A stretch of DNA of 64,000 nucleotides from positions 6,547-70,546 of the forward strand of contig CAIMUP010000027.1 of assembly GCA_903844645.1 (NCBI GenBank), written 5' to 3'. The notes below the pieces were generated by a model. The model was not told where the DNA came from. It did no database searches and saw only the letters and a list, made by a program, of their open reading frames with translations. The translations under genes were made by a program, and so were the position numbers. Below are positions 1,021 through 59,282 of this stretch, one piece after another; position 1 is the stretch's first letter, and every line of letters starts with the position of its first letter. The stretch comes from an uncultured Bacteroidota bacterium (lineage in GTDB: Bacteria; Bacteroidota; Bacteroidia; AKYH767-A; JABDAW01).

Positions 1021-1196
1021 TTTGGATTGCTCCTCCCCAAGTTTGGATTGTTCCTCCCCAAGCTTGGATTGCTTCTCCCCAAGCTTGGATTGTTCCTCCC
1101 CAAGCTTGGATTGTTCCTCCCCAAGCTTGGATTGTTCCTCCCCAAGCTTGGATTGCTCCTCCCCAAGCTTGGATTGCTCCATTCCAAGCTTGGAAT
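1021..1196. repeat. Tandem array of 21-bp units (ttggattgttcctccccaagc), about 8 copies; begins with an 11-bp-stem hairpin (ttggggaggag...ctcctccccaa)
   Basis: Direct reading of 1000-1235. It lies between the convergent ends of the lpxL-like gene and the giant T9SS gene. A degenerate copy follows at 1211-1235. Confidence 0.9.
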
Positions 1197-1339
1197 TGTT
1201 TAAAACCAATTGGTTTTGCTCCTCCCCAAACAGGGAATATTCCAAAAGAAAAAGGTTTTGCCATTCATCCCGAAGGGAAAAATGCAAAACCTTTTTGAAT
1301 AAGATGGATGAAATCTTAACGGGGAATGGTATTTAGGAG

Positions 1340-4300
1340 CTATTCCACGACCACCTTCCGCTGCATCACACCGTCCTCATTCTGCATCAAAACAAGGTAC
1401 AGTCCTTTTGGAATTTCAGACAGATTCAATTCAATTTGGTTGTCGCCAACGACGGAAGTATGGTTTTGATTCATCATAATCCTGCCCATCACATCTATCA
1501 AACGGAGGGTGTAGGCTTGCTCTTTATCTGATGAAAAAACGATCGTCAAATGGTCCTTTGCGGGATTGGGATAAATGTTGAATGTCGCTAAACTCGCAAC
1601 ATCGCCCTCCTCCATTCTTGGTGCAGTCGTAAAAGTTTGCGCTGCACTGAAGCCCGAATTAACGGTTCCGCTGGCATTGCAATTGGCTTGAATTTGCCAA
1701 TCGTAAGCCGTATTATGCGTCAGTTGCGAGAAGGTATAATGGGTATTCGGGCTTATCGTGTGGGTACTCCAAATAGTAGCATTGTGCTTGCTGATTCGGA
1801 TGGTATAACCATAGTAACAAGTCGGCTGAATCCAATTAGCCATAGCCGTAGTTGCCGCGATATTGGTGGTCGCATTCACAGGGAATGTCGGGAAATTGCA
1901 AGCCCCTGGAATAAGAGTCGAAGCCATACCGGTGCAGCCATTCACGCTGGTAACGGTTACAGAATAAGAGCCTCCGGTATTAATAATAATGCCTTGGGAG
2001 GTAGCATTGGTATTCCAAAGATAAGCCGCGAAAACGGGGCTTGCCGTAAGCGAGGCATTACCGCCGCCACAAATATTGGCGAGGTTCGCAGAAATAATAT
2101 TGGGGATAGGAGCCGTAAGCACCGTAACCGATTGGTGTGCCGCAGCCGAACAATTCCCGCCATTAGAAACGGTTACATAGTAGATGCCCGTAGCAGAAAT
2201 AGTGATGGATTGAGTCGTTGCACCATTGCTCCAAAGGTATGCGGAATAAGTATTATTAGTTGATAAAGATGAATTGCCACCAGTGCATGTAGTGGTTGCT
2301 CCAACAATCGCCAAGCCTGTAATAGTAGGCGTTACCGTAATATTAATTTGAGCAGCGGCGGCAGTACAACCATGCGCATTGGTAACCGTAACTCGATATG
2401 GATTTGATGCAACAACGGTGATGGATTGGGTGATTGCTCCATTGCTCCAAAGGTACGATGAATAGGCACCGGCATTCAGCAATACAGAGCCTCCCTGGCA
2501 GAATGTAGTAGGACCATTCGGGATGATGGTAGGAATCGGATTCTGGTAAACAGTAACGGTAGTAGAAGCCGATGCCGAACATCCCTGGCCATTAGAAACT
2601 GTAACAGAATAAGTACCGGAAGCGGAAGCATTGATTGTCGCTGTTGAAGCTCCGTCGCTCCAAGAATAAGCCGTTCCACCCGATGCCGTTAAAGCAACGC
2701 TGCCACCAGCACAGAAGGCAGTGGGACCATTAGGAGTAATAATTGCAGTCAGGTTAGAATAGACCGTAACCGACAAGCAGGTAGTTCCTGAACATCCGTT
2801 CACATCCGTAACCGTAACACAGTAGGGCTGTGTACCGAATGCAGTAATAGTTTCAGCAGAAGAACCATCGTTCCATAAGTAGGAAGCATAACTCCCGGCA
2901 TCTAATGAAACCGAACCACCATCGCAGAAAGTAGTAGGACCATTAGGAGCAATGGATGGTGTAGGCAAAGCATTAATAGTAACATAAGTCGAGGCAACAC
3001 CAGTACAACCATTACCATCAGTTACGGTAACTTGTATAGCACCACCCGTCGCAGTTGTGATTAATTGAATAGTTTCAGAAGTACTCCACAAATAGGAAAT
3101 CCATGAACCAGCATCCAAAGAAACGGGTGTTCCTGCACATGTACTTGTAAGCCCCATAATAGTTGGTATTGGATTTGGATTCACAGCAACCGCAATTGAA
3201 GCCGTTCCGGTGCAGGTGTTAGCATTAGTAACTGTAACGATATAAATGCCACCGATTGTAGTAATGATTGTTTGGGTTGTTGCTCCATTGCTCCAAGAAT
3301 AAGAAATAAATGTTCCTGCATCAAGCATAACAGAGCCACCATCACAAAAGGTAGTGGAACCAATTGAGGTAATTACAGGAGTGGGATTTGGATTAATAGA
3401 AACTGTAATTGAAGCAGTACCGGTGCAGGTGTTCGCATCGGTAACAGTAACGCCGCAAATACCACTGCTCGCAACGGTGATTGTTTGAGTCGTTGCCCCA
3501 TTGCTCCAGGAATAAGAAGTAAAAGTACCAGCATCTAAAGTTACATTGCCACCATCACAAAAGGTAGTGTTTCCATTAGATGTAATAATTGGAGTTGGAG
3601 GGTTGGCACAAGGAGTACAATTTAAACTGAAAGATTCCGAAGCATCAATATCTCCACTTACAACAGTCCAATTAGCAGTTGAATACACAATGTCATCTAC
3701 CTGTATGCAAGAAAGATTAGGGTTATGGCTTGCCCAAAAGTGAGCGGTAGTTATGTTGTGATTATGTCCATTTGCAACATTCAAATTGTGAAGGTCATTA
3801 TAAGGACAAAAGAAATAAATTAATTCAGGATTGTGGCTCACGTCTAAGCTACTTATGTTATTATGATTACATTCCAAGACCGTGAGAGCAGTATTGTTGC
3901 TCACATCAAGGCTATTGATGAAATTGTTGGCAGGAGTAAGTTCAATAAGCGAGGTATTGAGACTCACATCTAAACTCGTCAGGTTATTATATGCACACTG
4001 CAAATAGAGAAGTGCCGTATTGTGGCTAACATCTAAATTATTTAGACTGTTGTCATAACATACCAAATCTGTAAGTGCGATGTTATGGCTTAAATCCAAG
4101 CTGCTTAATACGGTATTGTCGTAACAATACAATGTATTAAGCGCAGGGTTATTTGTAACATTTATGCTGGTAAGCAAATCATTCCAACAATATAAATCCG
4201 TAAGGGCTGTACAGTGGCTCACATCCAAGCTACTTAAAGAATTATTGCCAGAGCAATCCAAATACGTGAGTGCTGTGTTGTGACTCATATCTAAACTAAT

Positions 4301-7300
4301 TAAGTTGTTATAGTTAGAATAAATATTATTGTTACAATAAAGTGTTATAAGTGCAGTGTTGTGGGTAACATCTAAGTTATCTAACATATCATCAGCACAA
4401 TGCAATTCCGCAAGTGATGTATTGTTGCTCACATCTAAGTTGCTAATTTGATTTTGAGAACAATCCAAATATGTAAGGGCTATGTTGTGAGAAATATCAA
4501 AACTATTCAAGTAATTGTTGAAACATATTAATCCGGTAAGTGAGGTGAATGCTTCAATGCCAGTTAAACTAGAAATGAAAAGATGAGAAACATCCATAGT
4601 ACCATGAAATGCCTCCGCCTCACAAAATTGAATCTCTCCATCTCCATTAGTATTAATTGCAGTGTCAGCAAGCAAAGCTGTTTTGAACGCAGCATTGGGG
4701 ATGTTCACAATATCGGAGCAATTACAATTCAAACTAAAATGAGCATTAGCATCTACGTTATCAATCCAATAATTAGTTGAATAATCAACATCATCAACCT
4801 GTACACAGAAAAGGTTAGGATTATTAACGGCATTAAAAAACTCTAAATTGGTATTGTTGCCATTCGCAAGATTCAAACTAGTTAGAGTATTAAAGCTACA
4901 ATCAAAATTATTAAGAAGTGGATTGTGACTGACATCTAACATTGTTAATGAATTATTATAAGTTACTAATGCCTGAAGAGCCGCATTATTACTAACATCT
5001 AAGCTGCTTAACATATTATCATAACAATAAATATAAGTAAGAGCTGTGTTTTGGCTAAAATCTATATTAGTAAGTGAATTGCTGGAACACTCTAAATAAG
5101 TTAGTGCCGTGCAGTTCATCAGGTTTAAACTGTTTAATGAATTATTGGAACAATAGACTGTGTTGAGGGCAATGTTATGGCTGAAATCTAAACTTCCTAT
5201 AGGATTGCTGTAACAATATAAAGTAGCAAGTCCAGTAAAGGCTTCTATTCCAGTAAGGTCTGTAATACCTAAACTTGGTACATAAATATAATCTGCGAAA
5301 GCAGTTGCTTCACATACCTGTATTTCATTATCACCATTAGTGTTGATGGCTGTATTTGCAAGTAAATAGGCTTTAAAGTTAGCATCTGGAATGTTTACTA
5401 TGGGTGCACAAGCAGCACAATTTAAACTAAAGGAAGCAGTGGCATCAATACTTCCATTTCCAACTGTCCAATTAGCAGATGAATAAAAAATATCATCTAC
5501 CGTGATACACGAAAGATTTGGATTAAGGGTTGCATCGAAAAGTGTGATGTTTGTGTTGTTGCCATTGGCTACATTTAAACTATTCAGATTGTTATTGGCA
5601 GTGCTGAAAAGTATAAGTGCGGTGTTGTTAGTAACATCCAAAGTTGTCATTGAATTACCATAACATCTTAAATATTGAAGAGCGGTGTTGTGGCTAACAT
5701 CTAAAGTGGTTAGTATGTTTCTTCCACAATTCAAATCAGTTAAGGCAGTGTTGTGGCTCAAGTCCAAAGACAAAATGAAGTTATCGTAGCAATCCAACAT
5801 CACAATATTTGGAAAAGCTTCGATACCTGTAAGATCAAATATTCCACGGCTGTCAACTTGAATGTCTCCTGCAAAAGCATTGGCTTCGCAAACTTGTATT
5901 TCTCCATCTCCATTCGTATTGATGTCTGTTCGTCCAACTAAGTAGGCTTTAAAAATAGCATCGGGAATATTGACTACGACAATGCAATTGCAATTCAAAC
6001 TAAAAGTTGCTGATGCATCAATATTAAAATTAGAAACCGTCCAATTGGCATTTGCCCAAATAGTATCATCAACTGATATGCAAGATAGAGCAGCATTATT
6101 AATGGCACTAAAAGTAGTCATGTTGGTGTTGTTTCCATTAGCCACAGTCAGGTTAGTAAGTGCATTGTTTGTACATTGCAAATTGGTGAGCGAAGTATTA
6201 TGACTCATGTCTAAATTTGTGATGGAATTGTAGTTGCAATTCAGCGTGGTCAGAGCTGGATTGTTGCTGACATCTATGCTTGTTAGCATGTTATTATAAC
6301 AATTAATAGTAGTCAGAGCAGGATTGTGGCTGACATCTAAACTACTGAAATTATTATGGTCGCAGTACAAATAAACAAGCGCATGGTTATAAGATAAATC
6401 AACAGTGCTAATAGTATTCCCTCCGCACAACAAACCAGTGATATTTGGAAAATTCTGAATACCGGCTAACTGTGCAATACTCAAACCATTCACATCAATT
6501 GTTCCGGTAAAAGCATCGGCTTCACAGACTTGTATTTCGTTGTCGCCATTGGTATTAATAGCAGGATTCGCAAGCAAGGCTGCTTTGAAATTGGCATCAG
6601 GAATGTTTAAGATAGCAGTACAGGCACAATTGAGACTAAAACTTGCCCCTGAATCTATGCTGCCATTACCCACTGTCCAAGTAGTTGTTGCATAAGCTAC
6701 ATCATCCACTTTGATACAGGTAAGATCAGGATTATTACTTGCATCAAAAGCAGAGAAATCTGTATTGTGACCATTGGCAATGTTTAAGGTATTTAATACT
6801 GGGTTACCACTGCAATAAAAATTAGAAAGGGTAGTGTTTACACTAACATCCAAATGGAATATTGAATTATGAGTACAATCGAAGGTTATAAGCGCACTGT
6901 TATGGCTTATATCAATATCGGTAAGGTTGTTATAATCGCAATACAATTTACTAAGTCCCGCATTGTTGCTCACATCTAAAACTCCTAATGAGTTATCGCT
7001 ACAGCCCAAAATATTAAGGGCTGTATTATGACTCACATCTAAAAAAAACAAAGGGTTCGAGTAACAATATAGATAGCCAAGAGCCGAATTGTGACTCACA
7101 TCTAAACCAACAAGACTATTGCCATTGCATTGTAAACCTACGAGATTTGAATTCTGGCTTACATCTAAATGTACAATACTATTATAACTGCAATCCAATG
7201 TTTGCAAACTGGTATTTTGGGTAACATCCAGGCTATTGAAATTATTATGATTACAAACCAATACCGTAAGAGCCGTGTTATGACTAACATCCAAAGTATT

Positions 7301-8473
7301 CAAGCTATTATCATAACAATACAATTCTGTAATTCCAGTAAATGCTTCAATGCCTATCATATCCTGTATTCCGAGTAAAGAAACATTAATTGCCCCATGA
7401 TATGCAGCAGCTTCATAGACTTCTATTTCATTGTTATGGTTTGTATTAATAGTAGTATCGCTCACCAATGCAGCTTTGAAAATAGAATCCTGAAAATAGA
7501 CTATATCTGGAGTGGGACAAAACAGGCTGAAAGATGCTGCATTATCTATATTAACTGAAGCCAGCCAATGGGCAGTTGCCCAGGCTACGTTGTCCACTTG
7601 TATGCAGGTCAGGTAGGGGTTACCATTGGCATAAAAGGTGGAATTTAAGGCGGCATTATTTCCATTGGCTATATTCAAATAAATAACACTATTATTGAAA
7701 CAATCGAAAAAAGTAAGTGCAGAGTTGTGGCTTGCATCTATACTGGATATATAATTATTCCAACAAATGAAATAAGTAAGCGCAGGGTTGTGGCTTAAAT
7801 CTATATCGGTTAATAAATTATTGAAACAGGTAAAATATGTAAGTGTTGGGTTATTACTTACATCTATATGTGTGAGATAATTATAGGTACAGCTAAGGTT
7901 GGACAGATTCAGATTATGGCTGACATCTAAGCTGGTCAGGTGATTTTGATCGCAATCAAGCATAAAAAGTTGGGTGTTATTACTCACATCTAAAGTAGTC
8001 AAGTTATTCTCAGAAATTTCTAAGGAATCTAAAACTGGATTATGACTTATATCTATGCTGGTTAGGTTATTATTGAAGGCATTAATATGAGTAAGAGAGG
8101 TATTGTTGCTAAAGTTTAAGCTGCTTAGACGATTTTCATAGCACCCCAGACGAATAAGTGCAGTATTGTGGCTCAAATCTAAATCATATAGTACATTGGT
8201 ACTACAATCCAGGTTTAATAAATTTATAAAAGCCTCTATACCGGTTAAGTCGTGAATGCCCAAATTCGAGACATTAATTCCATTTATCTCTGTTCCGATA
8301 AATGCTTCTGCCTCCGACACCTGAATTTCTCCATCACCATTCGTGTTAATGTCCAATCTTCCTACCAAATAAGCTTTAAAAGCAGGGTCAGGAATATTCA
8401 CGTTTTGACCAGCAGCATTCATTACCATCAAGAATGCCAGAACAAGAGTTACTGTTGTTAAGATTTGTTTCAT
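1340..8473 (-). CDS. Giant T9SS-secreted surface protein (2377 aa): signal peptide, 6 tandem modules (N-cap 'NIPDxxFKAxL..INTNGDGEIQ' + about 10 22-residue LRR-like repeats 'LDVSHNTALTxLxCxxNxLTSLDVS'), about 10 Cys-containing Ig-like domains, an FN3-like domain, and a Por_Secre_tail C-terminal domain
   Basis: Signal peptide MKQILTTVTLVLAFLMVMNAAGQ. The N-cap motif recurs six times. The Ig-like domains follow the pattern '...TFCxGGSVxLxAG..SYxWSNGATTQTITV...'. The C-terminus 'IYPNPAKDHLTIVF...LSEIPKGLYLVLMQNEDGVMQRKVVVE' matches the T9SS sorting-domain consensus. Confidence 0.85.
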   Translation of the reverse strand: MKQILTTVTLVLAFLMVMNAAGQNVNIPDPAFKAYLVGRLDINTNGDGEIQVSEAEAFIGTEINGINVSNLGIHDLTGIEAFINLLNLDCSTNVLYDLDLSHNTALIRLGCYENRLSSLNFSNNTSLTHINAFNNNLTSIDISHNPVLDSLEISENNLTTLDVSNNTQLFMLDCDQNHLTSLDVSHNLNLSNLSCTYNYLTHIDVSNNPTLTYFTCFNNLLTDIDLSHNPALTYFICWNNYISSIDASHNSALTFFDCFNNSVIYLNIANGNNAALNSTFYANGNPYLTCIQVDNVAWATAHWLASVNIDNAASFSLFCPTPDIVYFQDSIFKAALVSDTTINTNHNNEIEVYEAAAYHGAINVSLLGIQDMIGIEAFTGITELYCYDNSLNTLDVSHNTALTVLVCNHNNFNSLDVTQNTSLQTLDCSYNSIVHLDVSQNSNLVGLQCNGNSLVGLDVSHNSALGYLYCYSNPLFFLDVSHNTALNILGCSDNSLGVLDVSNNAGLSKLYCDYNNLTDIDISHNSALITFDCTHNSIFHLDVSVNTTLSNFYCSGNPVLNTLNIANGHNTDFSAFDASNNPDLTCIKVDDVAYATTTWTVGNGSIDSGASFSLNCACTAILNIPDANFKAALLANPAINTNGDNEIQVCEADAFTGTIDVNGLSIAQLAGIQNFPNITGLLCGGNTISTVDLSYNHALVYLYCDHNNFSSLDVSHNPALTTINCYNNMLTSIDVSNNPALTTLNCNYNSITNLDMSHNTSLTNLQCTNNALTNLTVANGNNTNMTTFSAINNAALSCISVDDTIWANANWTVSNFNIDASATFSLNCNCIVVVNIPDAIFKAYLVGRTDINTNGDGEIQVCEANAFAGDIQVDSRGIFDLTGIEAFPNIVMLDCYDNFILSLDLSHNTALTDLNCGRNILTTLDVSHNTALQYLRCYGNSMTTLDVTNNTALILFSTANNNLNSLNVANGNNTNITLFDATLNPNLSCITVDDIFYSSANWTVGNGSIDATASFSLNCAACAPIVNIPDANFKAYLLANTAINTNGDNEIQVCEATAFADYIYVPSLGITDLTGIEAFTGLATLYCYSNPIGSLDFSHNIALNTVYCSNNSLNSLNLMNCTALTYLECSSNSLTNIDFSQNTALTYIYCYDNMLSSLDVSNNAALQALVTYNNSLTMLDVSHNPLLNNFDCSFNTLTSLNLANGNNTNLEFFNAVNNPNLFCVQVDDVDYSTNYWIDNVDANAHFSLNCNCSDIVNIPNAAFKTALLADTAINTNGDGEIQFCEAEAFHGTMDVSHLFISSLTGIEAFTSLTGLICFNNYLNSFDISHNIALTYLDCSQNQISNLDVSNNTSLAELHCADDMLDNLDVTHNTALITLYCNNNIYSNYNNLISLDMSHNTALTYLDCSGNNSLSSLDVSHCTALTDLYCWNDLLTSINVTNNPALNTLYCYDNTVLSSLDLSHNIALTDLVCYDNSLNNLDVSHNTALLYLQCAYNNLTSLDVSLNTSLIELTPANNFINSLDVSNNTALTVLECNHNNISSLDVSHNPELIYFFCPYNDLHNLNVANGHNHNITTAHFWASHNPNLSCIQVDDIVYSTANWTVVSGDIDASESFSLNCTPCANPPTPIITSNGNTTFCDGGNVTLDAGTFTSYSWSNGATTQTITVASSGICGVTVTDANTCTGTASITVSINPNPTPVITSIGSTTFCDGGSVMLDAGTFISYSWSNGATTQTIITTIGGIYIVTVTNANTCTGTASIAVAVNPNPIPTIMGLTSTCAGTPVSLDAGSWISYLWSTSETIQLITTATGGAIQVTVTDGNGCTGVASTYVTINALPTPSIAPNGPTTFCDGGSVSLDAGSYASYLWNDGSSAETITAFGTQPYCVTVTDVNGCSGTTCLSVTVYSNLTAIITPNGPTAFCAGGSVALTASGGTAYSWSDGASTATINASASGTYSVTVSNGQGCSASASTTVTVYQNPIPTIIPNGPTTFCQGGSVLLNAGAYSSYLWSNGAITQSITVVASNPYRVTVTNAHGCTAAAAQINITVTPTITGLAIVGATTTCTGGNSSLSTNNTYSAYLWSNGATTQSITISATGIYYVTVSNGGNCSAAAHQSVTVLTAPIPNIISANLANICGGGNASLTASPVFAAYLWNTNATSQGIIINTGGSYSVTVTSVNGCTGMASTLIPGACNFPTFPVNATTNIAATTAMANWIQPTCYYGYTIRISKHNATIWSTHTISPNTHYTFSQLTHNTAYDWQIQANCNASGTVNSGFSAAQTFTTAPRMEEGDVASLATFNIYPNPAKDHLTIVFSSDKEQAYTLRLIDVMGRIMMNQNHTSVVGDNQIELNLSEIPKGLYLVLMQNEDGVMQRKVVVE

Positions 8474-8716
8474 GTTATTTATTATTAAAATTGTTTAAAA
8501 GATTCCATATTTATTTGGATTTGGCAAACCTACTAAAACATTCGACACTTCCGCTCGATGCAAAATAGGGTGTCCCCCGATCATCCATCAGCACCTTGTA
8601 ATTTCATTCATTTTTTTTAATTTTAATTGGATTAATATATATTAATTTTACTGTATTCTACTTGAAATCGCAGTGTTTGTAACTCCCTCCATCCCAGAAA
8701 GAGTTATCGCTGGCTT

Positions 8717-8864
8717 GGAAATAGTTATGGCTGCCGTGGAAATAGTTATGGCTGGCGTGGAAATAGTTGTGGCTGCCGTGGAAATAGTTATGGCTGGCGT
8801 GGAAATAGTTATAGCTGGCGTGGAAATAGTTATGGCTGGCGTGGAAATAGTTATCGCCAGCCCA
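8717..8864. repeat. Tandem array of 21-bp units (gaaatagttatggctggcgtg), about 7 copies, in a divergent promoter region
   Basis: Direct reading. It lies between the divergent starts of the 2377-aa gene (8473) and the SBBP gene (9053). The terminal unit carries an inverted variant (gctggc/gccagc). Confidence 0.9.
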
Positions 8865-9052: not shown

Positions 9053-10705
9053 ATGAAGACAATAATAGGGTTCGTAATTCAATTAGTAATGATGGCTGGC
9101 ATCGCGAATGCGCAGAATCAAACGTGGCAATGGGCACATGGCTTCGGGGGAGGCAATGGCGACCAAAGCCTTTGCATCGCTGCCGATAGCTGGGGCAACT
9201 CCTACATCACGGGGTTTTATGGAAGCGACAGTATTCACTTCGGCAATTCGACGATTATTAATCATGGCAGCTCCGATATATTCATCGCGAAGTACAATAC
9301 CCTTGGCGACGCTATCTGGGCAAAAGGGTTCGGGAATGCAGGAGCCGATATTGCCCATGGTATCACGACGGATAGTTACGGCAATATCTATATCACAGGA
9401 TATTTTACCAGTGCTACCATCACCTTCGGGACATTCACGCTGAATAACCAGGGCGAGAACGACTTCTTCCTCGTAAAGTTAGATTCCGCAGGAACGGTGC
9501 AGTGGGCTAAGAGTGCCGGCGGGCAGTGGAATGAATATGGTTACTGCATCACGGCAGATCACGTTGGGAATATTTATGTGAGCGGGTATTATGAGAGTCC
9601 TATCATCACGCTTGGGACTGCCACCTTCACGAATTGGTATAGCTGCGGACAATACATCAGTTGGTTCGTGGCGAAGTTCGATGGTTCGGGGAATAACCTC
9701 TGGAGCACCTGCCCGAATAGTTGCGGAACCATCTACGGAATGCATTGCGACGATGCGAATAACCTCTTTCTTGCTGGTACTTACCAAAGCGACAGCACGG
9801 ATTTCGGGAATAATATCTACCTCTTAAACAATGGCGGAGCAGATGCCTTCATAGCCAAATACTCTTCCACAGGAACCATTCAGTGGGCGAAACAAATTGC
9901 AGGAACTGACTACGACTGGGGGCAGTGTGTTACCACAGACCCTGCCGGCAATGCGTACATCAGCGGGGACTTCTTAAGTCCTACGTTATCGGTTGGGAAT
10001 ACCACGCTCACGAACCACGGAAACTACGATATTTACCTTGCCAAATATACCAATGCAGGCAACTTCGTGTGGGCACGATGTGTCGGCGATACCGCCAGCG
10101 ACAATCCCATGGCAATCTGCACGGACAACTGGTGTTATGTCTATTTAAGCGGTGCGTATGGCAGTGGGCATCTCACCTTTGGCACGCATACGATTGCGAA
10201 TAATGGCTTCACGAATGCCTTCATTGCCAAATACGATTCCGCTGGCACTGCCGTCTGGGCAACGAACCTCGGAGGCAGCAATTTCGATTACGGCTACTCC
10301 ATCACTACTGATGGAAACAACAATATTTACCATACCTCCACCTTCAGCAGCAGTACGATTACGTATGGCAGTCAGGAGGTCTCCGACATTGGCAACTATG
10401 ACGGAGTGGTGGGCAAATTGTCTTACCTCGCGACGGATGTTATGAACCCATTTCAGCCCTCCCCTACCGCCCTTTACCCGAATCCCAACAACGGTTCGTT
10501 CACTATTACTAACACCAACCATTCTCTCGCTACCCGCCTGATGATTACCGATCTCTCGGGCAGGGAAATTGTTGGTTATACTCTGAATCCGAACAGGGAT
10601 ACCGAAGCCATTACGTTGCATCTATCAAGTGGCATTTACTTCTGGCAATTAATCACCGCAGAAGGCACGGTAGATAAAGGCAAATTGGTCATTATCGGTA
10701 ATTAA
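9053..10705 (+). CDS. T9SS-secreted beta-propeller (SBBP-type repeat) protein
   Basis: Signal peptide. Repeated 'SYGNIYITGYF / GNIYVSGYY / GNAYISGDF' beta-propeller-repeat motifs. C-terminus 'ALYPNPNNGSFTITNT...LSSGIYFWQLITAEGTVDKGKLVIIGN' is a Por_Secre_tail. Confidence 0.8.
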   Translation: MKTIIGFVIQLVMMAGIANAQNQTWQWAHGFGGGNGDQSLCIAADSWGNSYITGFYGSDSIHFGNSTIINHGSSDIFIAKYNTLGDAIWAKGFGNAGADIAHGITTDSYGNIYITGYFTSATITFGTFTLNNQGENDFFLVKLDSAGTVQWAKSAGGQWNEYGYCITADHVGNIYVSGYYESPIITLGTATFTNWYSCGQYISWFVAKFDGSGNNLWSTCPNSCGTIYGMHCDDANNLFLAGTYQSDSTDFGNNIYLLNNGGADAFIAKYSSTGTIQWAKQIAGTDYDWGQCVTTDPAGNAYISGDFLSPTLSVGNTTLTNHGNYDIYLAKYTNAGNFVWARCVGDTASDNPMAICTDNWCYVYLSGAYGSGHLTFGTHTIANNGFTNAFIAKYDSAGTAVWATNLGGSNFDYGYSITTDGNNNIYHTSTFSSSTITYGSQEVSDIGNYDGVVGKLSYLATDVMNPFQPSPTALYPNPNNGSFTITNTNHSLATRLMITDLSGREIVGYTLNPNRDTEAITLHLSSGIYFWQLITAEGTVDKGKLVIIGN

Positions 10706-10837: not shown

Positions 10838-11060
10838 TAACCGACTTCTGTTTCGACCTAAACCATGTGCTTTACTACGAAACAGAAGTCTGCTTCGGTC
10901 TAAAGCATGTGGTTTACTGCGAAACAGAAGTCGGCTTCGGTCTAAACCATGTGGTTTACTGCGAAACAGAAGTCGGCTTCGGTCTAAACAACATGGTTTA
11001 CTACGAAACAGAAGTCGGCTTCGGTCTAAACAACGTTGTTTAGACCGAAACAGAACTTCC
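10838..11060. repeat. Tandem array of 42-bp units (gtttactgcgaaacagaagtcggcttcggtctaaaccatgtg), about 5 copies, bounded by inverted partial copies
   Basis: Direct reading. The first partial unit 'gtaaccgacttctgtttcgacctaaacc' and the last 'gtttagaccgaaacagaac' are inverted relative to the internal units. There are no spacers, so it is not a CRISPR array. Confidence 0.9.
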
Positions 11061-53777: not shown

Positions 53778-56700
53778 TTACTGAACCATAATCTTAGTTT
53801 GTAATGTCTGTCCACCTGTTTCGAGGCTTAAGAAATATACACCCTTAACGATGTTTGCAGTATTTAATTCAACTTGGTTATCGCCGATTGCAGAAGCATT
53901 CACTTGGCTCATGATAACTCTTCCTGTAAGATCTACTAAACGCAAGGTATAGTTGTCAGATGTTTGAGAATTGAAGACAACAGTAGCATGGTCAGTAGCT
54001 GGATTTGGATAAACATTGAAAGCAGAGATTGTTTCGATGTCGCCATCAGCCATTCTTGCAGCAGTGAATAATTGTGGAGCACTTGGACCTGAATTCGTTG
54101 TTGTGCTACAGTTAGTTTGGATAGTCCATGAATAGTTATGTCCATGAGTTAAACCAGAGAACGTGTAGTGAGAATTCGGTGCGAAAGTGAAAGTAGCAAC
54201 TGCCAATGTGTTCAAGTCTGTACGAACGATTGTATAACCAGAAACGCATGAAGGCTGATTCCAAGAAACATAAGCAGAGTTCGTAGTGATGCTTGAAGTA
54301 GCCATGTTAGTAGGCAATACGCAATCAACACTTAAATTAACACATGCAACTCCTGAACAACCGTTAGTGCTTGTAATTGTTACACAATACAATCCTGGAT
54401 GACCTGGAGTAATTGTGATAGAAGCTAAAGTAGCACCTGTGCTCCAGTTGTAAGCATAACCAGCTTGAGCAGCTAAAGTTACGTTACCTGTGTTAGCGCA
54501 ATACGTAGCAAGACCGGTTGTGGTAATGTTAGTATTAACACCTGTTAACACCTGTACAGAGTGAGTAGCTGTTCCTGTGCAACCACAAGCATTGGTAACG
54601 GTTACTGTGTAACCAGCAGAACCAGAAGCAATAGTAGTTGTTTGAGTAGTAGCGCCATTGCTCCATAAATAAGCAGCATAGCCAGCACCAGCATTAATGG
54701 TTACAGGACCACAATTTGCGAAAGAAGGAGAAGCTGTCATTGTAACAACTGGTCTTGGGCAGAAACTGGTAGTAGTGTAAGAAGCTGTACCGCTACATCC
54801 ATTTGCATTAGTTACAGAAACAGTGTATGTTCCTGCAGCAGTAATGTTAATGTTTTGAGTAGTAGCACCAGTGCTCCATAAGTAAGTAGCGAAACCAGAG
54901 TTAGCACTTAATACCATTGAAGAGGCAGTACAAGGAGCAGGAACTGGACCAGCAGTGATTATTGGAGTTACGAAATCGGTTACTGTAACAGTAGCACAAA
55001 CAGTACCTGTACAACCATTGGAATAAGAAACGGTTACGCAATAAGTTCCTGAAGTGGTTATAGTAGTTCCATAATCTGCAACTGTAGAGCCATTACTCCA
55101 AATATAAGAAGTATAATGTGGATTGTAAATAACATTTAAGTTAACAGAACCACCTTGACAGAAAGTCAAAGGACCATTTGAAGTAATATTTGGAACAGGT
55201 GCCACACCAACAGTAATTGAATGGTGAGCAGTACCTGTACAACCTGCAGCATTAGAAACAGTTACTATGTAATTTCCTGTATTAGTAACAGTGATAGATT
55301 GGGTTGTTGCACCAGTACTCCATAAATAACCTGCATAAACACCAGTAGTTAAAATAGAAGAACCACCTTGACAGTCATAAACAGCACCAGAGATGGTAGG
55401 AATTGGATTCTGACTAACTGTAACAGATTTGCAAGCAGTTCCTGTACATCCGTTACCATCAGTAACAGTTACACAATAGGTACCAGCAGCAGTAACTGTA
55501 ATAGAAGAAGAATGAGAACCATTGCTCCATGTATAAGAAGCCCAAGTACCAGCATTTAATGTTCCTGAACCAGGAGCACAAATTTGAGATGGACCAGAGA
55601 TAGTTGGAGTTGGAGCAGAATTAATCGCTACTGATTGACAAGCTACACCTGTACATCCGTTACCATCGGTTACAGTTACACAATAGTTTCCTGAAGTAGT
55701 AACAGTTGCAGAAGCATTAGTTCCACCATTGCTCCATGAATAAGAAGCATAAGTTCCAGTGCTTAAAGTAATAGAACCACCGCAAGAACTGGAAGGACCA
55801 GAAACAGCAGGAGTTGGAGCAGAATGAACGCTTACTTGTTGACAAGCAACACCTGTACAACCATGAATATTTGCAACAGTTACACAATAGTTACCACTAG
55901 ATGTAACAGTAATAGAACCATTAGTTCCACCATTGCTCCATGAATAAGAAGCCGCTGTTCCTGTACTTAATGTTAAAGAACCAGAGCATGAACTTGTAGG
56001 TCCAGAGATACTTGGTTGAGGATTATCATAAATTGTAACGCCTACACATGTAGAACCTGAACAACCATGACCATCAGTTACAGTAACACAATTTTGTCCT
56101 GTAGAACATGCTGAAATAGTTTGGTTAGTTCCTCCATTTGACCAGTTGTAACCAGCATAAGAACCAGCGTCTAAAGTTACGCAAGAACCAGCACAAGCAG
56201 TAGTAGCACCAGAGATAGAAGGAGTTGGGTTATCATAAATTGTTACATCAACACAAGTAGAACCTGAACAACCGTTACCATCAGTTACAGTTACACAATT
56301 TTGTCCTGTAGAACAAGCTGTAATAGATTGGTTTGTTCCTCCATTTGACCAGTTGTAACCAGCATAAGAACCAGCATCTAAAGTTACGCAAGAACCTGCA
56401 CAAGCACTAGTAGCACCAGATATAGAAGGAGTTGGATTATCATAAATTGTAACATCTGTACAAGCAGTTCCCATACATCCATTACCATCAGTAACCATTA
56501 CACAATAGTTACCTGATGAACATACAGTAGTATTTTCGGAATTATCTCCTGTTGTCCAAGCGTAATCAGCCCAAGAACCTGCATCTAAAGTTACGCAAGA
56601 ACCAGAACAAGCAGTAGTAGTACCAGAAATAGAAGGAGTTGGATTGTCATAGATAGTTACCCACTGACAAGCTGAACCCATACAACCGTTACCATCAACT

Positions 56701-58520
56701 ACAGTAACACAATAGTTATCTGAAGAACAAGCAGAAGTTGTTGGTGTCATATCTCCATTGCTCCAAGAATAACCATCCCAAGAACCTGCATCTAAAGTAA
56801 CACAAGAACCTGCACAAGCAGAAGTATTTCCAGAGATTGAAGGAGTTGGATTTGCATTAAAAGAAACAAATTGGCTAGCTGAACCCATACAACCATTTCC
56901 ATCAGTAACAGTTACTATTTCGGTAGCAGCACCACTTGTAAAGGTATAACTTTCATCTGTTGAAAAATAACCTGTAATACTATTATACCAAGAATAACTT
57001 GCCCAAGAACCAGCATCCAAAGTTACTGTATTACCATCACATACTGTTGTAGGTCCATTAGATGTAATAACTGGAACTGGATTAGTATTAACTGTTACAT
57101 CCATACAATCTTCACCTGTACATCCATTAGGATCTGTAATAACTACACAATATGTTCCTGAAGTAGTAGCTGTAACAGTTTCGTCTGTTCCGCCATTATA
57201 ATTCCAAGAATAATTATCCCATGTTCCGCCATCTAAAACAACTGAACCTCCATCGCAGAAAGTAGTGTTACCACCAGCTGTGATATGTGGATGAGGTGTT
57301 GGATTAACAGTTACATCTTGACAAGCAACGCCTGTACAACCATTATCATCAGTTACTGTACAGCAGAATGTTCCGCCATTGTCTAAAGTAATCATTTCAG
57401 CTGATGAACCGTTGCTCCAGCTATAAGAAGCATAAGTTCCTGCATCTAAAGTTACATTTCCTCCATTACAGAATACTGGAGGTGAGCTATAAGTAAGTGT
57501 AGGTGTTGGAGAATCATGAACCACTACATCAATACAACCTACGCAAGTACATCCACCTGCATCAGTAACAGTACAGCAATAAGAACCTGCAGTTACAGCA
57601 GTAAGAGTTTGAGAATGTGAACCATTGCTCCAGGTATAAGCTGCCCAAGAACCAGCATCTAAAGTTACATTACCGCCTGAACAGAATGATAAATTACCAG
57701 AAGCGGTGATTGAACAAGAAATGTTGTTGTTTCCACCTGTTACATCATGGCAAGCAGCGGCTGTACAGCCCCAGAAAGAAGTAGCAGTTACGCAATAAGT
57801 GCCTGCTGATGTTACATCAATACTTGGTGTGTTTGCGCTGTTGCTCCAAGAATAAGCATTAACTCCCCAGCTACCATTAGCAGTAAGGGTTGCATGTCCG
57901 CCTCCGCAATTCAAATTGCCTGTTTGGCTGATTGAAACTGATGGATTTGGCAATACAATAATAAAACGATACGCGACGCCTGTACATCCCCAAACATTGG
58001 TTACTGTACAAGAATACCAACCGATGTTGGTAGCCGATGTGGTTTGTGTGGTAGCACCGTTGCTCCACATGTAAGAAGAATACCCTGCGCCTGCATCCAA
58101 ATTCATGTGACCTGCGCACCAGTTAAATGGTCCGCCGATGTGAATGACTGGATGTGGACGTGGATGAACCGTTACGTGAATCGAAGCTACACCTGTGCAG
58201 CCGTTCGAAGCAGTAACCGTTACATGGTACGTGCCGGTGAAAAACGCATTAATACTTTGCGTGTTTGCACCTGTGTTCCAATGATAATGGGAATAATTCC
58301 CTGTGCTTAAATGCACATGTCCACCAGCACAAATGGTCGTCGGACCATTCGCTGTAATGGTTGGAGGTACCGGAATAGTACATTCCGAATTCACCGAAAT
58401 TTCGGTGTTGATAGAAGGTGTCCCATTTCCTTCTGTAGTCGGGGTTTTTGCAGACAGGTTAGTGCCGAATAAGGCAAGAACCAAGCAAAGGATGACTGGT
58501 AAAAGTTTTAATTTGTTCAT
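53778..58520 (-). CDS. Giant T9SS-secreted adhesin-like protein (1580 aa): about 18 Cys-containing Ig-like repeats, FN3-like domain, Por_Secre_tail
   Basis: Signal peptide. Repeats of '...TxCxGxxVTLDAGS.A.Y.WSNG...TIT...G.YCVTVTDGNGC.G..C..VT....P.P' including near-identical copies. C-terminal 'ISAFNVYPNPATDHATVVF...KGVYFLSLETGGQTLQTKIMVQ'. Confidence 0.85.
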   Translation of the reverse strand: MNKLKLLPVILCLVLALFGTNLSAKTPTTEGNGTPSINTEISVNSECTIPVPPTITANGPTTICAGGHVHLSTGNYSHYHWNTGANTQSINAFFTGTYHVTVTASNGCTGVASIHVTVHPRPHPVIHIGGPFNWCAGHMNLDAGAGYSSYMWSNGATTQTTSATNIGWYSCTVTNVWGCTGVAYRFIIVLPNPSVSISQTGNLNCGGGHATLTANGSWGVNAYSWSNSANTPSIDVTSAGTYCVTATSFWGCTAAACHDVTGGNNNISCSITASGNLSFCSGGNVTLDAGSWAAYTWSNGSHSQTLTAVTAGSYCCTVTDAGGCTCVGCIDVVVHDSPTPTLTYSSPPVFCNGGNVTLDAGTYASYSWSNGSSAEMITLDNGGTFCCTVTDDNGCTGVACQDVTVNPTPHPHITAGGNTTFCDGGSVVLDGGTWDNYSWNYNGGTDETVTATTSGTYCVVITDPNGCTGEDCMDVTVNTNPVPVITSNGPTTVCDGNTVTLDAGSWASYSWYNSITGYFSTDESYTFTSGAATEIVTVTDGNGCMGSASQFVSFNANPTPSISGNTSACAGSCVTLDAGSWDGYSWSNGDMTPTTSACSSDNYCVTVVDGNGCMGSACQWVTIYDNPTPSISGTTTACSGSCVTLDAGSWADYAWTTGDNSENTTVCSSGNYCVMVTDGNGCMGTACTDVTIYDNPTPSISGATSACAGSCVTLDAGSYAGYNWSNGGTNQSITACSTGQNCVTVTDGNGCSGSTCVDVTIYDNPTPSISGATTACAGSCVTLDAGSYAGYNWSNGGTNQTISACSTGQNCVTVTDGHGCSGSTCVGVTIYDNPQPSISGPTSSCSGSLTLSTGTAASYSWSNGGTNGSITVTSSGNYCVTVANIHGCTGVACQQVSVHSAPTPAVSGPSSSCGGSITLSTGTYASYSWSNGGTNASATVTTSGNYCVTVTDGNGCTGVACQSVAINSAPTPTISGPSQICAPGSGTLNAGTWASYTWSNGSHSSSITVTAAGTYCVTVTDGNGCTGTACKSVTVSQNPIPTISGAVYDCQGGSSILTTGVYAGYLWSTGATTQSITVTNTGNYIVTVSNAAGCTGTAHHSITVGVAPVPNITSNGPLTFCQGGSVNLNVIYNPHYTSYIWSNGSTVADYGTTITTSGTYCVTVSYSNGCTGTVCATVTVTDFVTPIITAGPVPAPCTASSMVLSANSGFATYLWSTGATTQNINITAAGTYTVSVTNANGCSGTASYTTTSFCPRPVVTMTASPSFANCGPVTINAGAGYAAYLWSNGATTQTTTIASGSAGYTVTVTNACGCTGTATHSVQVLTGVNTNITTTGLATYCANTGNVTLAAQAGYAYNWSTGATLASITITPGHPGLYCVTITSTNGCSGVACVNLSVDCVLPTNMATSSITTNSAYVSWNQPSCVSGYTIVRTDLNTLAVATFTFAPNSHYTFSGLTHGHNYSWTIQTNCSTTTNSGPSAPQLFTAARMADGDIETISAFNVYPNPATDHATVVFNSQTSDNYTLRLVDLTGRVIMSQVNASAIGDNQVELNTANIVKGVYFLSLETGGQTLQTKIMVQ
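56020..56460. repeat. Near-identical 213-bp (71-codon) tandem duplication inside the 1580-aa gene
   Basis: 'atcataaattgt[a/t]ac...agatagaaggagttgg' occurs twice in succession with only a few substitutions. Lower-identity copies extend to about 56900. Confidence 0.8.
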
Positions 58521-58619: not shown

Positions 58620-59282
58620 TTATGAAATAATCCCCAAATACCGTGTCGCGGCTTTCCCTAACTTCTTATCCCCTGTCAAATACCGAGTATAACTTACGAA
58701 GCTCATGCCCAAATTTTCCGCATCATATACTATAACATCTTTCCCACTATTAATAACATCGGTTTGGGTACACTGTTTTTCGGTCGGAATCGGTCCGCCC
58801 AACAAATAAAACCCTGTTTTAATCCGAAAACTCGCCTGCCCTACCGGTTTTTTCCTCGGCGTAAATTTATATTTTCCGACCAAGGTAGCCTTATTTGTAT
58901 ATCCCACGGCTGGTGCTACTTCGCTTGCCACCGATTTCGTCTTCGATTTCGGGGCGTTCGGAACACCGATTTCGGTACGGTTTTCATCAGGAATCAAGGT
59001 ATTATTCTTCACCTCCTCCTTCGTGATTTTCCGGATATACGCTATCAATGCCACCCTCGCCGTTTCGGTATTGTCATAATCAATCTGTCTCGCCGTCGCA
59101 GTAAGCTTCGAGATAGCATAATATGCTGCATAAGTGGTATGAAGCCCTTGCAAAATCGTATTCTTACCAGTCGTAATGTGCCATGCCGAAATATTGGCAC
59201 CGATTTCCGAACAAAAAGTCGTCTGAAACGTGTCAAACGCCTCCACTGCAATAGGTATCCAATCTTTATTTCCGCCTGCCAT
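58620..59282 (-). CDS. Hypothetical protein
   Basis: 220-aa ORF with no recognisable motifs. Confidence 0.45.
   Translation of the reverse strand: MAGGNKDWIPIAVEAFDTFQTTFCSEIGANISAWHITTGKNTILQGLHTTYAAYYAISKLTATARQIDYDNTETARVALIAYIRKITKEEVKNNTLIPDENRTEIGVPNAPKSKTKSVASEVAPAVGYTNKATLVGKYKFTPRKKPVGQASFRIKTGFYLLGGPIPTEKQCTQTDVINSGKDVIVYDAENLGMSFVSYTRYLTGDKKLGKAATRYLGIIS

What the first reader, a model, noticed from the sequence alone, without database searches (positions are those of the whole stretch)
1340..8473. 2377-aa T9SS cargo built from six near-identical LRR modules plus about 10 Ig-like domains that are paralogous to the 1580-aa protein
The N-terminal two-thirds is six tandem copies of a ~200-300-aa module. 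Each copy has an N-cap ('NIPDANFKAxLL..INTNGDNEIQVCEAxAF'), about 10 LRR-like 22-mers ('LDVSHNTALTxL.C..N.L.SLDVS') and a Cys-capped C-cap ('NIANGNNT....F.A..NP.L.CI.VDD..Y....W').

The C-terminal third carries Cys-containing Ig-like repeats of the same family as those filling the 1580-aa protein at 53778..58520.

Such internally repetitive, DNA-level redundant giant adhesins are prone to recombinational expansion and contraction, and to domain shuffling between paralogues. The module count and exact boundaries are also classic sources of mis-assembly.
Basis: seen in the sequence. Interest (0 to 1): 0.55.

Follow-up and report, generated by a model that had tools for sequence, protein, structure and literature searches.

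The report
Giant secreted LRR-plus-Ig surface adhesin
This is a real 2377-residue secreted surface protein of an uncultured Bacteroidota bacterium, made of six internalin-J-like leucine-rich-repeat domains on a stalk of eight Ig-like domains, but it is an ordinary member of a very large family and its repeats are too diverged to cause recombination or mis-assembly.

Summary
The ORF 1340..8473 (-) is real. The layout is: signal peptide, six capped LRR modules (191-369 aa), eight ~71-aa Ig-like repeats, one FN3-like domain and a type A T9SS sorting domain.

- The LRR unit is 21 residues, not 22.
- Modules hold 9, 9, 5, 4, 6 and 12 LRRs, not about 10 each.
- The modules are 49-65% identical in protein and 54-73% in cap DNA, so they are not near-identical.

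The longest exact DNA repeat in the gene is 22 bp. The best DNA self-match is 77% over 216 bp. Three near-identical variants in public assemblies are all 2377 aa, and an independent assembly matches 7134/7134 bases. The recombination and mis-assembly reading is therefore not supported.

The LRRs belong to the InlJ "cysteine-ladder" (IRREKO subtype 2) class. The stalk repeats are homologous to the Ig-like stem repeats of the Aureispira grappling-hook protein GhpA.

A profile of one capped module hits 22,709 cluster representatives at E<=1e-30. Relatives carry up to 14 modules.

The most likely function is a T9SS-exported, cell-anchored, multivalent adhesin. It is a new member of a known kind, of low interest.

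More unusual are the copy-number-variable 21-bp tandem arrays that flank the gene and fill most intergenic gaps in the window.

The parts
1340..8473 (-). Complete gene for the 2377-aa protein, stop codon included.
   Evidence: ORF list and translation. The identical protein P0121 occurs in public assemblies.
8408..8473 (-). Sec signal peptide, aa 1-22 (MKQILTTVTLVLAFLMVMNAAG | Q23).
   Evidence: Lys2 is followed by a hydrophobic core (11-residue Kyte-Doolittle means of 1.8-2.9 over residues 3-12). Small residues A-A-G precede Gln23. No dedicated signal-peptide predictor was available.
7517..8404 (-). LRR module M1 (aa 24-319): N-cap, 9 LRRs of 21 aa, C-cap. It lacks the N-cap Cys (QVSEA).
6626..7516 (-). 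LRR module M2 (aa 320-616): degenerate N-cap (VYFQDSIFK...IEVYEA), 9 LRRs, C-cap.
   Evidence: phmmer against PDB 3bz5 (InlJ) gives E 4e-57.
5990..6625 (-). LRR module M3 (aa 617-828): N-cap, 5 LRRs, C-cap.
5417..5989 (-). LRR module M4 (aa 829-1019): N-cap, 4 LRRs, C-cap. This module was modelled.
   Evidence: AlphaFold2 model of aa 822-1030: pLDDT 93.2, pTM 0.88. The best PDB fold match is InlJ 3bz5, E 5.8e-8.
4724..5416 (-). LRR module M5 (aa 1020-1250): N-cap, 6 LRRs, C-cap.
3617..4723 (-). LRR module M6 (aa 1251-1619): N-cap, 12 LRRs (one with a 6-aa insertion), C-cap.
   Evidence: plus reading of the sequence.
1889..3592 (-). Eight tandem Ig-like stalk repeats of about 71 aa (aa 1628-2195). 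They are 31-75% identical to each other.
   Evidence: HMM delimitation and identity matrix. AlphaFold2 model of repeats 4-5: pLDDT 97.7. The top six PDB fold matches are GhpA fragments, TM 0.62-0.70. Sequence match to GhpA 9flp: E 3e-25.
3171..3599 (-). The only fairly recent internal duplication: Ig repeats 1 and 2, 75% identical in protein and 77-79% in DNA.
   Evidence: TRF period 213 x 1.9 copies, 79% matches. blastn 77.3% over 216 bp. Protein matrix.
1619..1888 (-). FN3-like domain (about aa 2196-2285; Pfam match at aa 2199-2267).
   Evidence: PF00041 scores 22.9 bits, just below the 25-bit cut-off. The region is 47% identical to the paralogue's tail, whose FN3 scores 27.5 bits.
1343..1576 (-). 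Type A T9SS C-terminal sorting domain (aa 2300-2377).
   Evidence: PF18962 E 2.2e-14, 53.9 bits. TIGR04183 E 5.7e-11, 42.2 bits.
53778..58520 (-). Paralogous 1580-aa T9SS cargo: 19 repeats of the same Ig-like family, then FN3 and CTD. It has no LRR head.
   Evidence: blastp 42% over 818 columns, E 8e-179. 19 HMM hits. Pfam and TIGRFAM CTD matches.

Best explanation
The gene encodes a fibrillar, multivalent cell-surface adhesin exported by the type IX secretion system.

Proposed route and layout:
- The signal peptide takes the protein across the inner membrane.
- The C-terminal type A sorting domain takes it through the T9SS. There it is expected to be cleaved by the PorU-type sortase, which links the protein to the outer-membrane surface.
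- Because the anchor is C-terminal, the FN3 domain and the eight GhpA-like Ig domains form a stalk. The stalk holds the six LRR domains away from the cell.
- Each LRR domain is a self-contained InlJ-type solenoid of 21-residue repeats (consensus LtxLxCxxNxLtsLDVShNtA). It has a buried Cys ladder (40 of 45 repeats), a helical N-cap and a compact C-cap.
- The C-cap carries two Cys that are invariant across 30 aligned modules and probably form a disulfide.
- In modules 3-6 an extra linker Cys probably staples to the N-cap Cys.
- The six concave faces differ in sequence. They would offer several ligand-binding surfaces for proteins or glycans on other cells or particles.

Shown: the domain composition, the folds, the homologies and the sorting signal. 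Inferred: surface anchoring, the disulfides, the adhesive function and the ligand, which is unknown.
For: Export signals:
- The CTD scores above the curated cut-offs of two models, at the extreme C-terminus.
- The N-terminus looks like a signal peptide.
- At least seven CTD-bearing genes lie in the window, so the organism uses a T9SS.

LRR head:
- NCBIfam internalin_J E 6.6e-185. PDB InlJ 3bz5 E 4e-57 by sequence.
- InlJ 3bz5 is also the best fold match to a pLDDT 93 model.
- The 21-residue consensus and position-6 Cys match IRREKO subtype 2, LxxLxCxxNxLxxLDLxx (PMC2946307).

Stalk:
- The model has pLDDT 97.7 and is all-beta.
- Its six best PDB matches are GhpA stem and neck fragments. GhpA is described as rows of Ig-like repeats with disulfides in a T9SS substrate (bioRxiv 10.1101/2024.01.29.577165).

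Functional precedents:
- Porphyromonas gingivalis InlJ is a T9SS cargo and an adhesin that binds Candida Als3 (PMC5915736).
- LRR proteins with a TIGR04183 domain are depleted from the extracellular proteome of Flavobacterium psychrophilum gldD/gldG gliding mutants (PMC5682007).
- The architecture fits the fibrillar-adhesin definition of adhesive region, repetitive stalk and anchor (PMC9210967).

Disulfide inference:
- C168 and C198 of the module are invariant in 30 of 30 aligned modules.
- An N-cap Cys co-occurs with an extra upstream Cys in 23 of 27 modules, against 1 of 152 modules without it (Fisher p 7e-24).
- The model shows a beta-bridge between model residues 12 and 39, next to those two Cys.
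Against: - No ligand, expression data or localisation data exist.
- Type A CTD cargo is released rather than anchored in some Bacteroidota, so anchoring is an assumption.
- Model coordinates could not be inspected, so Cys-Cys distances were not measured.
- The Cys covariation counts paralogous modules from only 8 proteins, so the events are not independent.
- No T9SS machinery gene lies in the window.
- No conserved partner gene points to a function. The neighbours differ at the closest homologue's locus.
Confidence: 0.62

Rival explanations
1. The protein is a recombination-prone, length-variable ('periscope'-type) adhesin. Its module number expands and contracts through homologous recombination between near-identical DNA repeats, and the assembled copy number may be wrong.
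For: The protein is internally repetitive at the protein level. One pair of Ig repeats is 77-79% identical in DNA. Stalk repeat number differs widely among homologues: 8, 9, 19, 24, 29 and 37.
Against: - The longest exact internal repeat is 22 bp, and the best DNA self-match is 77% over 216 bp.
- Module caps are 54-73% identical in DNA.
- The modules are no closer to each other than to modules of other organisms' proteins.
- Three variants from at least six contigs are all 2377 aa.
- An independent assembly is identical over 7134 bases, although it differs in the flanking 21-bp arrays.
Confidence: 0.05
2. The protein is secreted by the T9SS but released into the medium after CTD cleavage. It would act as a soluble binding or agglutinating factor rather than a cell-anchored adhesin.
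For: The type A CTD is compatible with release. By my own knowledge, several Flavobacterium johnsoniae type A cargo proteins such as ChiA are soluble. LRR proteins with a TIGR04183 domain were detected in the extracellular proteome of F. psychrophilum.
Against: A stalk of nine beta-sandwich domains directly before the sorting domain makes most sense as a spacer from a surface. The closest studied analogues, P. gingivalis InlJ and GhpA, are cell-attached.
Confidence: 0.2
3. The protein assembles, like GhpA, into a multi-stranded rigid extracellular fibre. The distal hook would be replaced by chains of LRR domains, and the fibre would be used to catch other cells.
For: The stalk repeats are homologous in sequence and fold to GhpA stem repeats. 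They carry conserved Cys, as GhpA does. Aureispira-like LRR proteins are among the homologues (P0044 and P0045).
Against: - There are only 8 stem repeats, against 52 in GhpA.
- No PorP/PorE-like ghpB/C genes are adjacent. The neighbours are a lipid A acyltransferase and an SBBP beta-propeller cargo.
- Nothing here bears on oligomerisation.
Confidence: 0.06

Closest known systems
Listeria monocytogenes internalin J (InlJ, PDB 3bz5)
   Same: Both have 21-residue LRRs with Cys at the sixth position (the 'cysteine ladder') and a helical N-cap. The logic is the same: LRR head distal, beta-sandwich spacer, C-terminal sorting signal cleaved by a sortase-type enzyme. Sequence E 4e-57 and the best fold match.
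   Different: InlJ has one LRR domain fused to an Ig-like inter-repeat domain, MucBP repeats and an LPXTG anchor in a Gram-positive wall. This protein has six separate LRR domains, each closed by its own ~55-aa Cys-containing C-cap. It has no LPXTG and carries a T9SS CTD. Its NF033187 score of 617 is far below the 1700 cut-off.
Porphyromonas gingivalis InlJ (internalin-family T9SS cargo)
   Same: It is a Bacteroidota LRR protein of the internalin-J type that the paper lists among T9SS substrates. It is shown to be an adhesin in biofilm formation and in binding Candida Als3 (PMC5915736).
   Different: By my own knowledge it is a much smaller protein with a single LRR domain and no GhpA-like Ig stalk. 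Direct sequence comparison was not done here.
IRREKO@LRR proteins, subtype 2 (Matsushima et al. 2010)
   Same: The consensus LxxLxCxxNxLxxLDLxx of 21 residues matches the consensus LtxLxCxxNxLtsLDVShNtA derived here. The class was reported in Listeria InlJ and lmo0331 and in Flavobacterium, Cytophaga, Bacteroides and Porphyromonas proteins.
   Different: That paper defines a repeat class, not this multi-domain architecture.
Aureispira GhpA grappling-hook protein (PDB 9flp, 9flu and others) and SprB-like T9SS filaments
   Same: The Ig-like stalk repeats are homologous (E 3e-25; TM 0.62-0.70; 22-26% identity). Both have conserved Cys and a C-terminal T9SS sorting domain.
   Different: GhpA has 52 stem repeats, a loop-like hook, heptameric assembly and adjacent PorP/PorE-like anchor genes. 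This protein has 8 repeats, an LRR head and no such neighbours.
Uncharacterised multi-module LRR T9SS proteins of Tenacibaculum, Kordia, Flavobacterium, Aquimarina, Lutibacter and Aureispira
   Same: They carry the same capped module in tandem, with 0-14 C-caps per protein (mode 8) among the best 120 hits. Many end in a T9SS CTD. The module profile hits 22,709 cluster representatives at E<=1e-30.
   Different: Most combine the modules with other tails or heads, such as M4 or matrixin peptidases, PKD, HYR or lectin domains. Among the 120 best homologues, repeats of this Ig family follow the LRR modules only in P0005 (9 repeats; 43% identity, 80% coverage), P0059 (5) and P0046, P0060 and P0113 (2 each); an FN3-CTD tail like this one was confirmed for P0005.

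Membership tests
T9SS type A cargo protein | A C-terminal sorting domain of about 75 aa at the extreme C-terminus that matches PF18962 / TIGR04183 above the curated cut-offs. | tested here: met
   PF18962 scores 53.9 bits (cut-off 27) over aa 2300-2376. TIGR04183 scores 42.2 bits (cut-off 23).
T9SS type A cargo protein | An N-terminal Sec signal peptide. | tested here: met
   Lys2, a hydrophobic core with Kyte-Doolittle means up to 2.9, and A-A-G before Gln23. This is a reading of the sequence only; no dedicated predictor was available.
T9SS type A cargo protein | T9SS machinery (SprA/Sov, PorK/L/M/N, PorU/V) encoded in the genome. | not testable with these tools
   Only 64 kb is available, and the genome is not among the GTDB representatives scanned. 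Indirect support: at least seven CTD-bearing genes lie in the window.
InlJ-type / IRREKO subtype 2 LRR class | A 21-residue repeat with consensus LxxLxCxxNxLxxLDLxx. | tested here: met
   There are 45 repeats, spaced 21 residues apart with few exceptions. The consensus is LtxLxCxxNxLtsLDVShNtA, compared with PMC2946307.
InlJ-type / IRREKO subtype 2 LRR class | Cys replaces the hydrophobic residue at repeat position 6 in most repeats (the cysteine ladder). | tested here: met
   39 of 45 repeats in the automatic register. The count is 40 of 45 once the repeat at aa 1375, which carries an insertion, is put in register (sequence). Stacking in three dimensions was not inspected.
InlJ-type / IRREKO subtype 2 LRR class | An LRR solenoid fold closest to InlJ. 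| tested here: met
   The model has pLDDT 93.2. The best Foldseek PDB hit is 3bz5, E 5.8e-8 at 30% identity, followed by other internalins.
Listeria class 1 internalin InlJ (orthologue, NF033187) | A whole-protein score at or above the curated cut-off. | tested here: not met
   617 bits against a cut-off of 1700.
Listeria class 1 internalin InlJ (orthologue, NF033187) | An LPXTG sortase A anchoring signal, and an Ig-like inter-repeat domain fused to the LRR. | tested here: not met
   No LPXTG-like motif is present. Each LRR run ends in a compact C-cap of strand, helix and strand, not an Ig-like domain.
GhpA-type grappling hook | Stem built from GhpA-family Ig-like repeats. | tested here: met
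   phmmer E 3e-25 to 9flp. The top six fold matches are GhpA fragments.
GhpA-type grappling hook | A long stem of about 52 repeats with an N-terminal hook region, and adjacent PorP/PorE-like anchor genes (ghpB/C). | tested here: not met
   There are 8 repeats and an LRR head. The flanking genes are a lipid A acyltransferase, a small ORF and an SBBP cargo.
GhpA-type grappling hook | Heptameric parallel assembly. | not testable with these tools
   This needs biochemistry or cryo-EM.
Periscope protein / recombination-prone repeat adhesin | Highly identical tandem repeats at the DNA level. | tested here: not met
   TRF finds only two arrays, at 76-79% matches. blastn self-matches are at most 77% over 216 bp. 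The longest exact repeat is 22 bp.
Periscope protein / recombination-prone repeat adhesin | Repeat number varies between related strains. | tested here: inconclusive
   All three variants are 2377 aa, and an independent contig is identical. However, they differ by at most one residue, so they sample a single population. The next relative is only 43% identical.
Fibrillar adhesin (adhesive region + repetitive stalk + surface anchor) | All three parts are present in the order expected for a C-terminal anchor. | tested here: met
   LRR modules, then 8 Ig-like repeats plus FN3, then the CTD. The definition is from PMC9210967. Adhesive activity itself was not tested.

The most novel reading that the evidence does not exclude
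The stalk is GhpA-like, so the protein might not be a simple monomeric adhesin. It could form a short, disulfide-stiffened, possibly multi-stranded T9SS appendage. Its distal end would be a chain of six rigidly coupled LRR solenoids. This would be a 'grappling' fibre of a new design, used by an uncultured Bacteroidia lineage to capture other cells.
Probability: 0.06. Interest if true: 0.55.

Novelty: new member of a known kind. Interest (0 to 1): 0.18.

Why it matters
The direct value is modest.
- It gives a clean, corrected domain map of one representative of a very large, almost unstudied family of Bacteroidota surface proteins: tandem capped InlJ-type LRR domains on T9SS stalks.
- It links the stalk repeats to the only solved relative, GhpA.
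- It gives a testable prediction of two disulfide types in the module caps.
- It removes a false alarm. The gene is not a recombination or assembly hazard.
- The unstable elements at this locus are the 21-bp intergenic arrays on both sides of the gene. These deserve their own look.

Tried and rejected
- **Recent tandem duplication or collapsed assembly.** Rejected on the DNA self-comparison, the longest exact repeat and the identity of independent assemblies.
- **Orthology to Listeria InlJ.** Rejected: the score is below the cut-off, there is no LPXTG and there is no IR domain.
- **The Pfam DUF642 hit at aa 1997-2092 (29.8 bits).** Treated as a beta-sandwich cross-match, because it lies across Ig repeats 6-7.
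- **A search for the source genome or orthologues among GTDB species representatives.** It found only partial matches to the Ig region, in a Chitinophagales MAG, Emticicia and Pseudarcicella. The organism could not be named.
- **A housekeeping E2 acyltransferase query.** It placed the organism only among uncultured Bacteroidota/Bacteroidia MAGs, at most 86% identity, with the best named hit at 74%.
- **Conserved gene neighbourhood.** None was found. The closest same-architecture homologue, P0005, sits next to transposase, sigma-factor and CRISPR-Cas9 genes.
- **Rfam.** It found nothing upstream of this gene.
- **The sigma-70 and terminator scan of the 3' flank.** It found nothing.
- **A Bacteroidota-type -7 box.** TAGGTTTG lies at 8525-8532 (-), 52 nt before the ATG. 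It was seen by eye, but a match to six specified bases in an AT-rich spacer is weak evidence.
Full report
**Observation**

The ORF at 1340..8473 on the minus strand is the longest in the window and encodes 2377 aa. Motif searches place six N-caps (NIPDxxFK...INTNGDxEIQVCEA; the second is degenerate) and six C-caps (LNxANGNN...NPxLxCIxVDD...FSLNC). These delimit modules at aa 24-319, 320-616, 617-828, 829-1019, 1020-1250 and 1251-1619.

Three details are not.
- The LRR unit is 21 residues (63-nt period; 21-residue spacings), not 22.
- The modules contain 9, 9, 5, 4, 6 and 12 LRRs, 45 in all, rather than about ten each.
- The modules are not near-identical. Whole modules are 49-65% identical. 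The caps are 44-74% identical in protein and 54-73% in DNA.

**C-terminal third**

An HMM built from the repeats finds eight ~71-aa units at aa 1628-2195. It finds 19 units in the 1580-aa protein at 53778..58520. A weak FN3 match follows (22.9 bits). A type A T9SS sorting domain above both curated cut-offs closes the protein.

The two proteins align at 42% over 818 columns, E 8e-179, so the paralogy claim holds. It is not a special relationship, though. The FN3-CTD tail is 62% identical to that of a metagenomic protein (P0002) and only 47% identical to the in-window paralogue. Ig repeats 4, 6, 7 and 8 pair collinearly with P0002 repeats 33, 35, 36 and 37 at 56-72%.

The same stalk-anchor cassette sits behind different heads in other proteins: LRR modules in this protein and in P0005, a galactose-lectin domain in P0006, Laminin_G_3 in P0002, and no head domain in the 1580-aa protein. 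Domain shuffling is thus real over evolutionary time.

**DNA redundancy, recombination and assembly**

- Tandem Repeats Finder reports only two arrays inside the gene, at 76-79% matches.
That hit is Ig repeats 1 and 2. Everything else is at 64-75%, apart from a few matches of 32-47 bp at 85-91%.
- The longest exact repeat is 22 bp.
- The cap regions of each module score about as well against modules of proteins from other organisms as against their own sister modules. The six-module array is therefore old and is not being homogenised.
- Public assemblies hold three variants of the protein, which differ from the window's protein by 0 or 1 residue. All are 2377 aa and come from at least six contigs.
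- An independent MEGAHIT contig (L014) matches the gene at 7134 of 7134 bases.

The mis-assembly and expansion-contraction reading is not supported.

That same contig does differ from the window, but only in the two 21-bp tandem arrays that flank the gene. It has two fewer units downstream and one fewer unit upstream, and the aligned stretch of about 10.3 kb contains no mismatches.

**Nature of the modules**

- NCBIfam's internalin_J model matches with E 6.6e-185 in seven stretches, although at 617 bits it is far below the 1700-bit orthologue cut-off.
- Module 2 hits the InlJ crystal structure 3bz5 at E 4e-57.
- The consensus over the 45 repeats is LtxLxCxxNxLtsLDVShNtA, with Cys at position 6 in 40 of 45 (and the sequence).
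- This is the 'cysteine ladder' class of InlJ. It is also the second subtype of the IRREKO LRR class, LxxLxCxxNxLxxLDLxx, already reported from Listeria, Flavobacterium, Cytophaga, Bacteroides and Porphyromonas (PMC2946307; PMC5915736).
- An AlphaFold2 model of module 4 with its linkers (30-sequence alignment of same-length modules) has pLDDT 93.2 and pTM 0.88. It shows two N-cap helices, a ladder of short strands and a C-cap of strand, helix and strand.
- Its best PDB fold match is InlJ, followed by other internalins and engineered repebodies.

**Cysteines in the caps**

Two C-cap Cys (LSC and FSLNC) are invariant in 30 of 30 aligned modules from many proteins. I infer a conserved C-cap disulfide.

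Modules 3-6 also have a Cys in the N-cap helix (QVCEA) and a second Cys in the preceding linker (NCxC). Modules 1 and 2 lack both.

Across 179 modules of homologues that could be scored:
- An N-cap Cys goes with an extra upstream Cys in 23 of 27 cases.
- Only 1 of 152 modules without the N-cap Cys has the extra upstream Cys (Fisher p 7e-24).
- Several of the exceptions are modules with no preceding C-cap, and in one the extra Cys lie before the first module, probably in the signal peptide.

The model shows a beta-bridge between the linker strand and the IQVC strand. This suggests a linker-to-N-cap staple. The counts are not independent events, and I could not measure distances.

**Nature of the stalk**

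- The C-terminal 758 aa match the cryo-EM chain of the Aureispira grappling-hook protein GhpA at E 3e-25.
- A model of repeats 4-5 (44-sequence alignment) has pLDDT 97.7 and is all-beta.
- Its six best PDB matches are all GhpA stem or neck fragments (TM 0.62-0.70, 22-26% identity). Classical tandem Ig domains come next.
- GhpA is a T9SS substrate whose stem is 52 Ig-like repeats stiffened by disulfides (bioRxiv 10.1101/2024.01.29.577165).

'Ig-like' is therefore confirmed, and a solved relative exists.

**How common it is**

- The whole protein has 1924 hits at E<=1e-10 among the 8000 candidates scored. They come from Tenacibaculum, Kordia, Flavobacterium, Aquimarina, Lutibacter, Aureispira and many MAGs.
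- Among the best 120 hits the number of C-caps per protein runs from 0 to 14, with a mode of 8. Six modules is unremarkable.
- A profile of one capped module matches 87,192 cluster representatives at E<=0.001, 48,712 at E<=1e-10 and 22,709 at E<=1e-30, many with 10-30 matched stretches.
- The closest relative with the same overall architecture is P0005: 2045 aa, 43% identity, 80% coverage, nine Ig repeats, FN3 and CTD. Its gene neighbourhood is unrelated.
- The host is an uncultured Bacteroidota/Bacteroidia lineage.

**Mechanism**

The best-supported reading is a T9SS-exported fibrillar adhesin.
- The signal peptide (aa 1-22; Gln23 would become the mature N-terminus) and the type A CTD give the export route.
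- The C-terminal anchor puts the FN3 domain and eight Ig domains next to the cell and the six LRR solenoids at the tip.
- The LRR part is acidic and nearly free of Lys and Arg. The stalk is almost uncharged.
- As a rough estimate from general domain dimensions, the extended molecule would reach several tens of nanometres.

Functional precedents are P. gingivalis InlJ, a T9SS cargo and adhesin. A second precedent is that the CTD-bearing LRR surface proteins of F. psychrophilum are depleted from the extracellular proteome of gldD/gldG gliding mutants. The ligand is unknown. Anchoring rather than release is an assumption.

**Comparison and verdict**

The protein works like an internalin: LRR head, beta-sandwich spacer, C-terminal sortase-type signal. 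It is not a member of the Listeria InlJ family.

It shares stalk repeats with GhpA. It lacks GhpA's length, its hook and its neighbouring PorP/PorE-like genes.

It meets the definition of a fibrillar adhesin. It does not meet that of a 'periscope' protein with highly identical repeats.

It is a new member of a known and very abundant kind. Interest is low.

**Seen in passing**

- Thirteen tandem arrays with a period of 21 bp, or multiples of it, and mutually unrelated unit sequences occupy 11 of the 14 intergenic gaps longer than 150 nt. They make up about a third of that DNA.
- The two arrays that flank this gene vary in copy number between assemblies.
- No such arrays occur in about 170 kb of other Bacteroidota loci, but one lies upstream of the P0005 gene.
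- A DUF805b RNA motif sits 31 nt upstream of the paralogue's start codon.

Noticed in passing
window 1022-1229, 8697-8854, 10858-11055, 14871-15137, 18105-18197, 23679-23829, 27893-28058, 33865-34136, 37517-37722, 37807-38073, 44790-45019, 52332-52540, 59343-59469: Thirteen tandem arrays with period 21 bp (or 42, 63 or 84) have mutually unrelated unit sequences and 4-13 copies at 69-97% matches. They lie in 11 of the 14 intergenic gaps longer than 150 nt and make up about a third of that intergenic DNA. None occurs in about 170 kb of other Bacteroidota loci (L001-L013). One 21-bp x 3.6 array lies upstream of the homologous gene in L015. No paper was found on this. It is unexplained and may be more unusual than the finding in hand.
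   Followed up: partly
window 1022-1194 and 8697-8854, compared with L014: The two 21-bp arrays that flank the 2377-aa gene differ in copy number from an independent assembly: two fewer units downstream and one fewer unit upstream. The aligned stretch of about 10.3 kb has no mismatches. This is either real hypervariability or collapse by the short-read assembler. Gene callers place small ORFs of varying length (97 or 104 aa, 83 or 67 aa) in the two spacers that hold the arrays.
   Followed up: partly
window 58551-58583 (-): A DUF805b RNA motif (Rfam RF02914, 42.4 bits against a gathering score of 35.6, E 1e-8) lies 31 nt upstream of the start codon of the 1580-aa paralogue. It is just downstream of the 220-aa ORF at 58620..59282. 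No equivalent motif lies upstream of the 2377-aa gene.
   Followed up: partly
window 55441-56912 (inside 53778..58520, -): The 1580-aa paralogue has younger internal duplications than the 2377-aa gene. TRF finds arrays of period 204-207 with 2.8-4.3 copies at 73-79% matches, and there is a 41-bp exact repeat. Two adjacent Ig repeats are almost identical in protein.
   Followed up: partly
window 1340-8473, 9053-10705, 26231-27688, 28985-33754, 34253-35179, 53778-58520, 60230-61264: Seven genes in 64 kb end in a T9SS sorting domain. Besides the two large repeat proteins they include an SBBP beta-propeller protein, a BNR/sialidase-like protein, a 1589-aa protein with a PKD-like domain, and two small proteins of 308 and 344 aa.
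   Followed up: partly
L015 10315-11143 and 11361-13849: The contig that carries the closest same-architecture homologue (P0005) has a CRISPR-like array with a 66-bp period next to cas2, cas1 and a Cas9-like gene. It also has transposase genes upstream of the LRR gene.
   Followed up: no
window 8525-8532 (-): TAGGTTTG matches the Bacteroidota -7 promoter consensus TAnnTTTG (consensus from my own knowledge). It lies 52 nt upstream of the ATG of the 2377-aa gene. It is a six-base match in an AT-rich spacer, so it could be chance.
   Followed up: no
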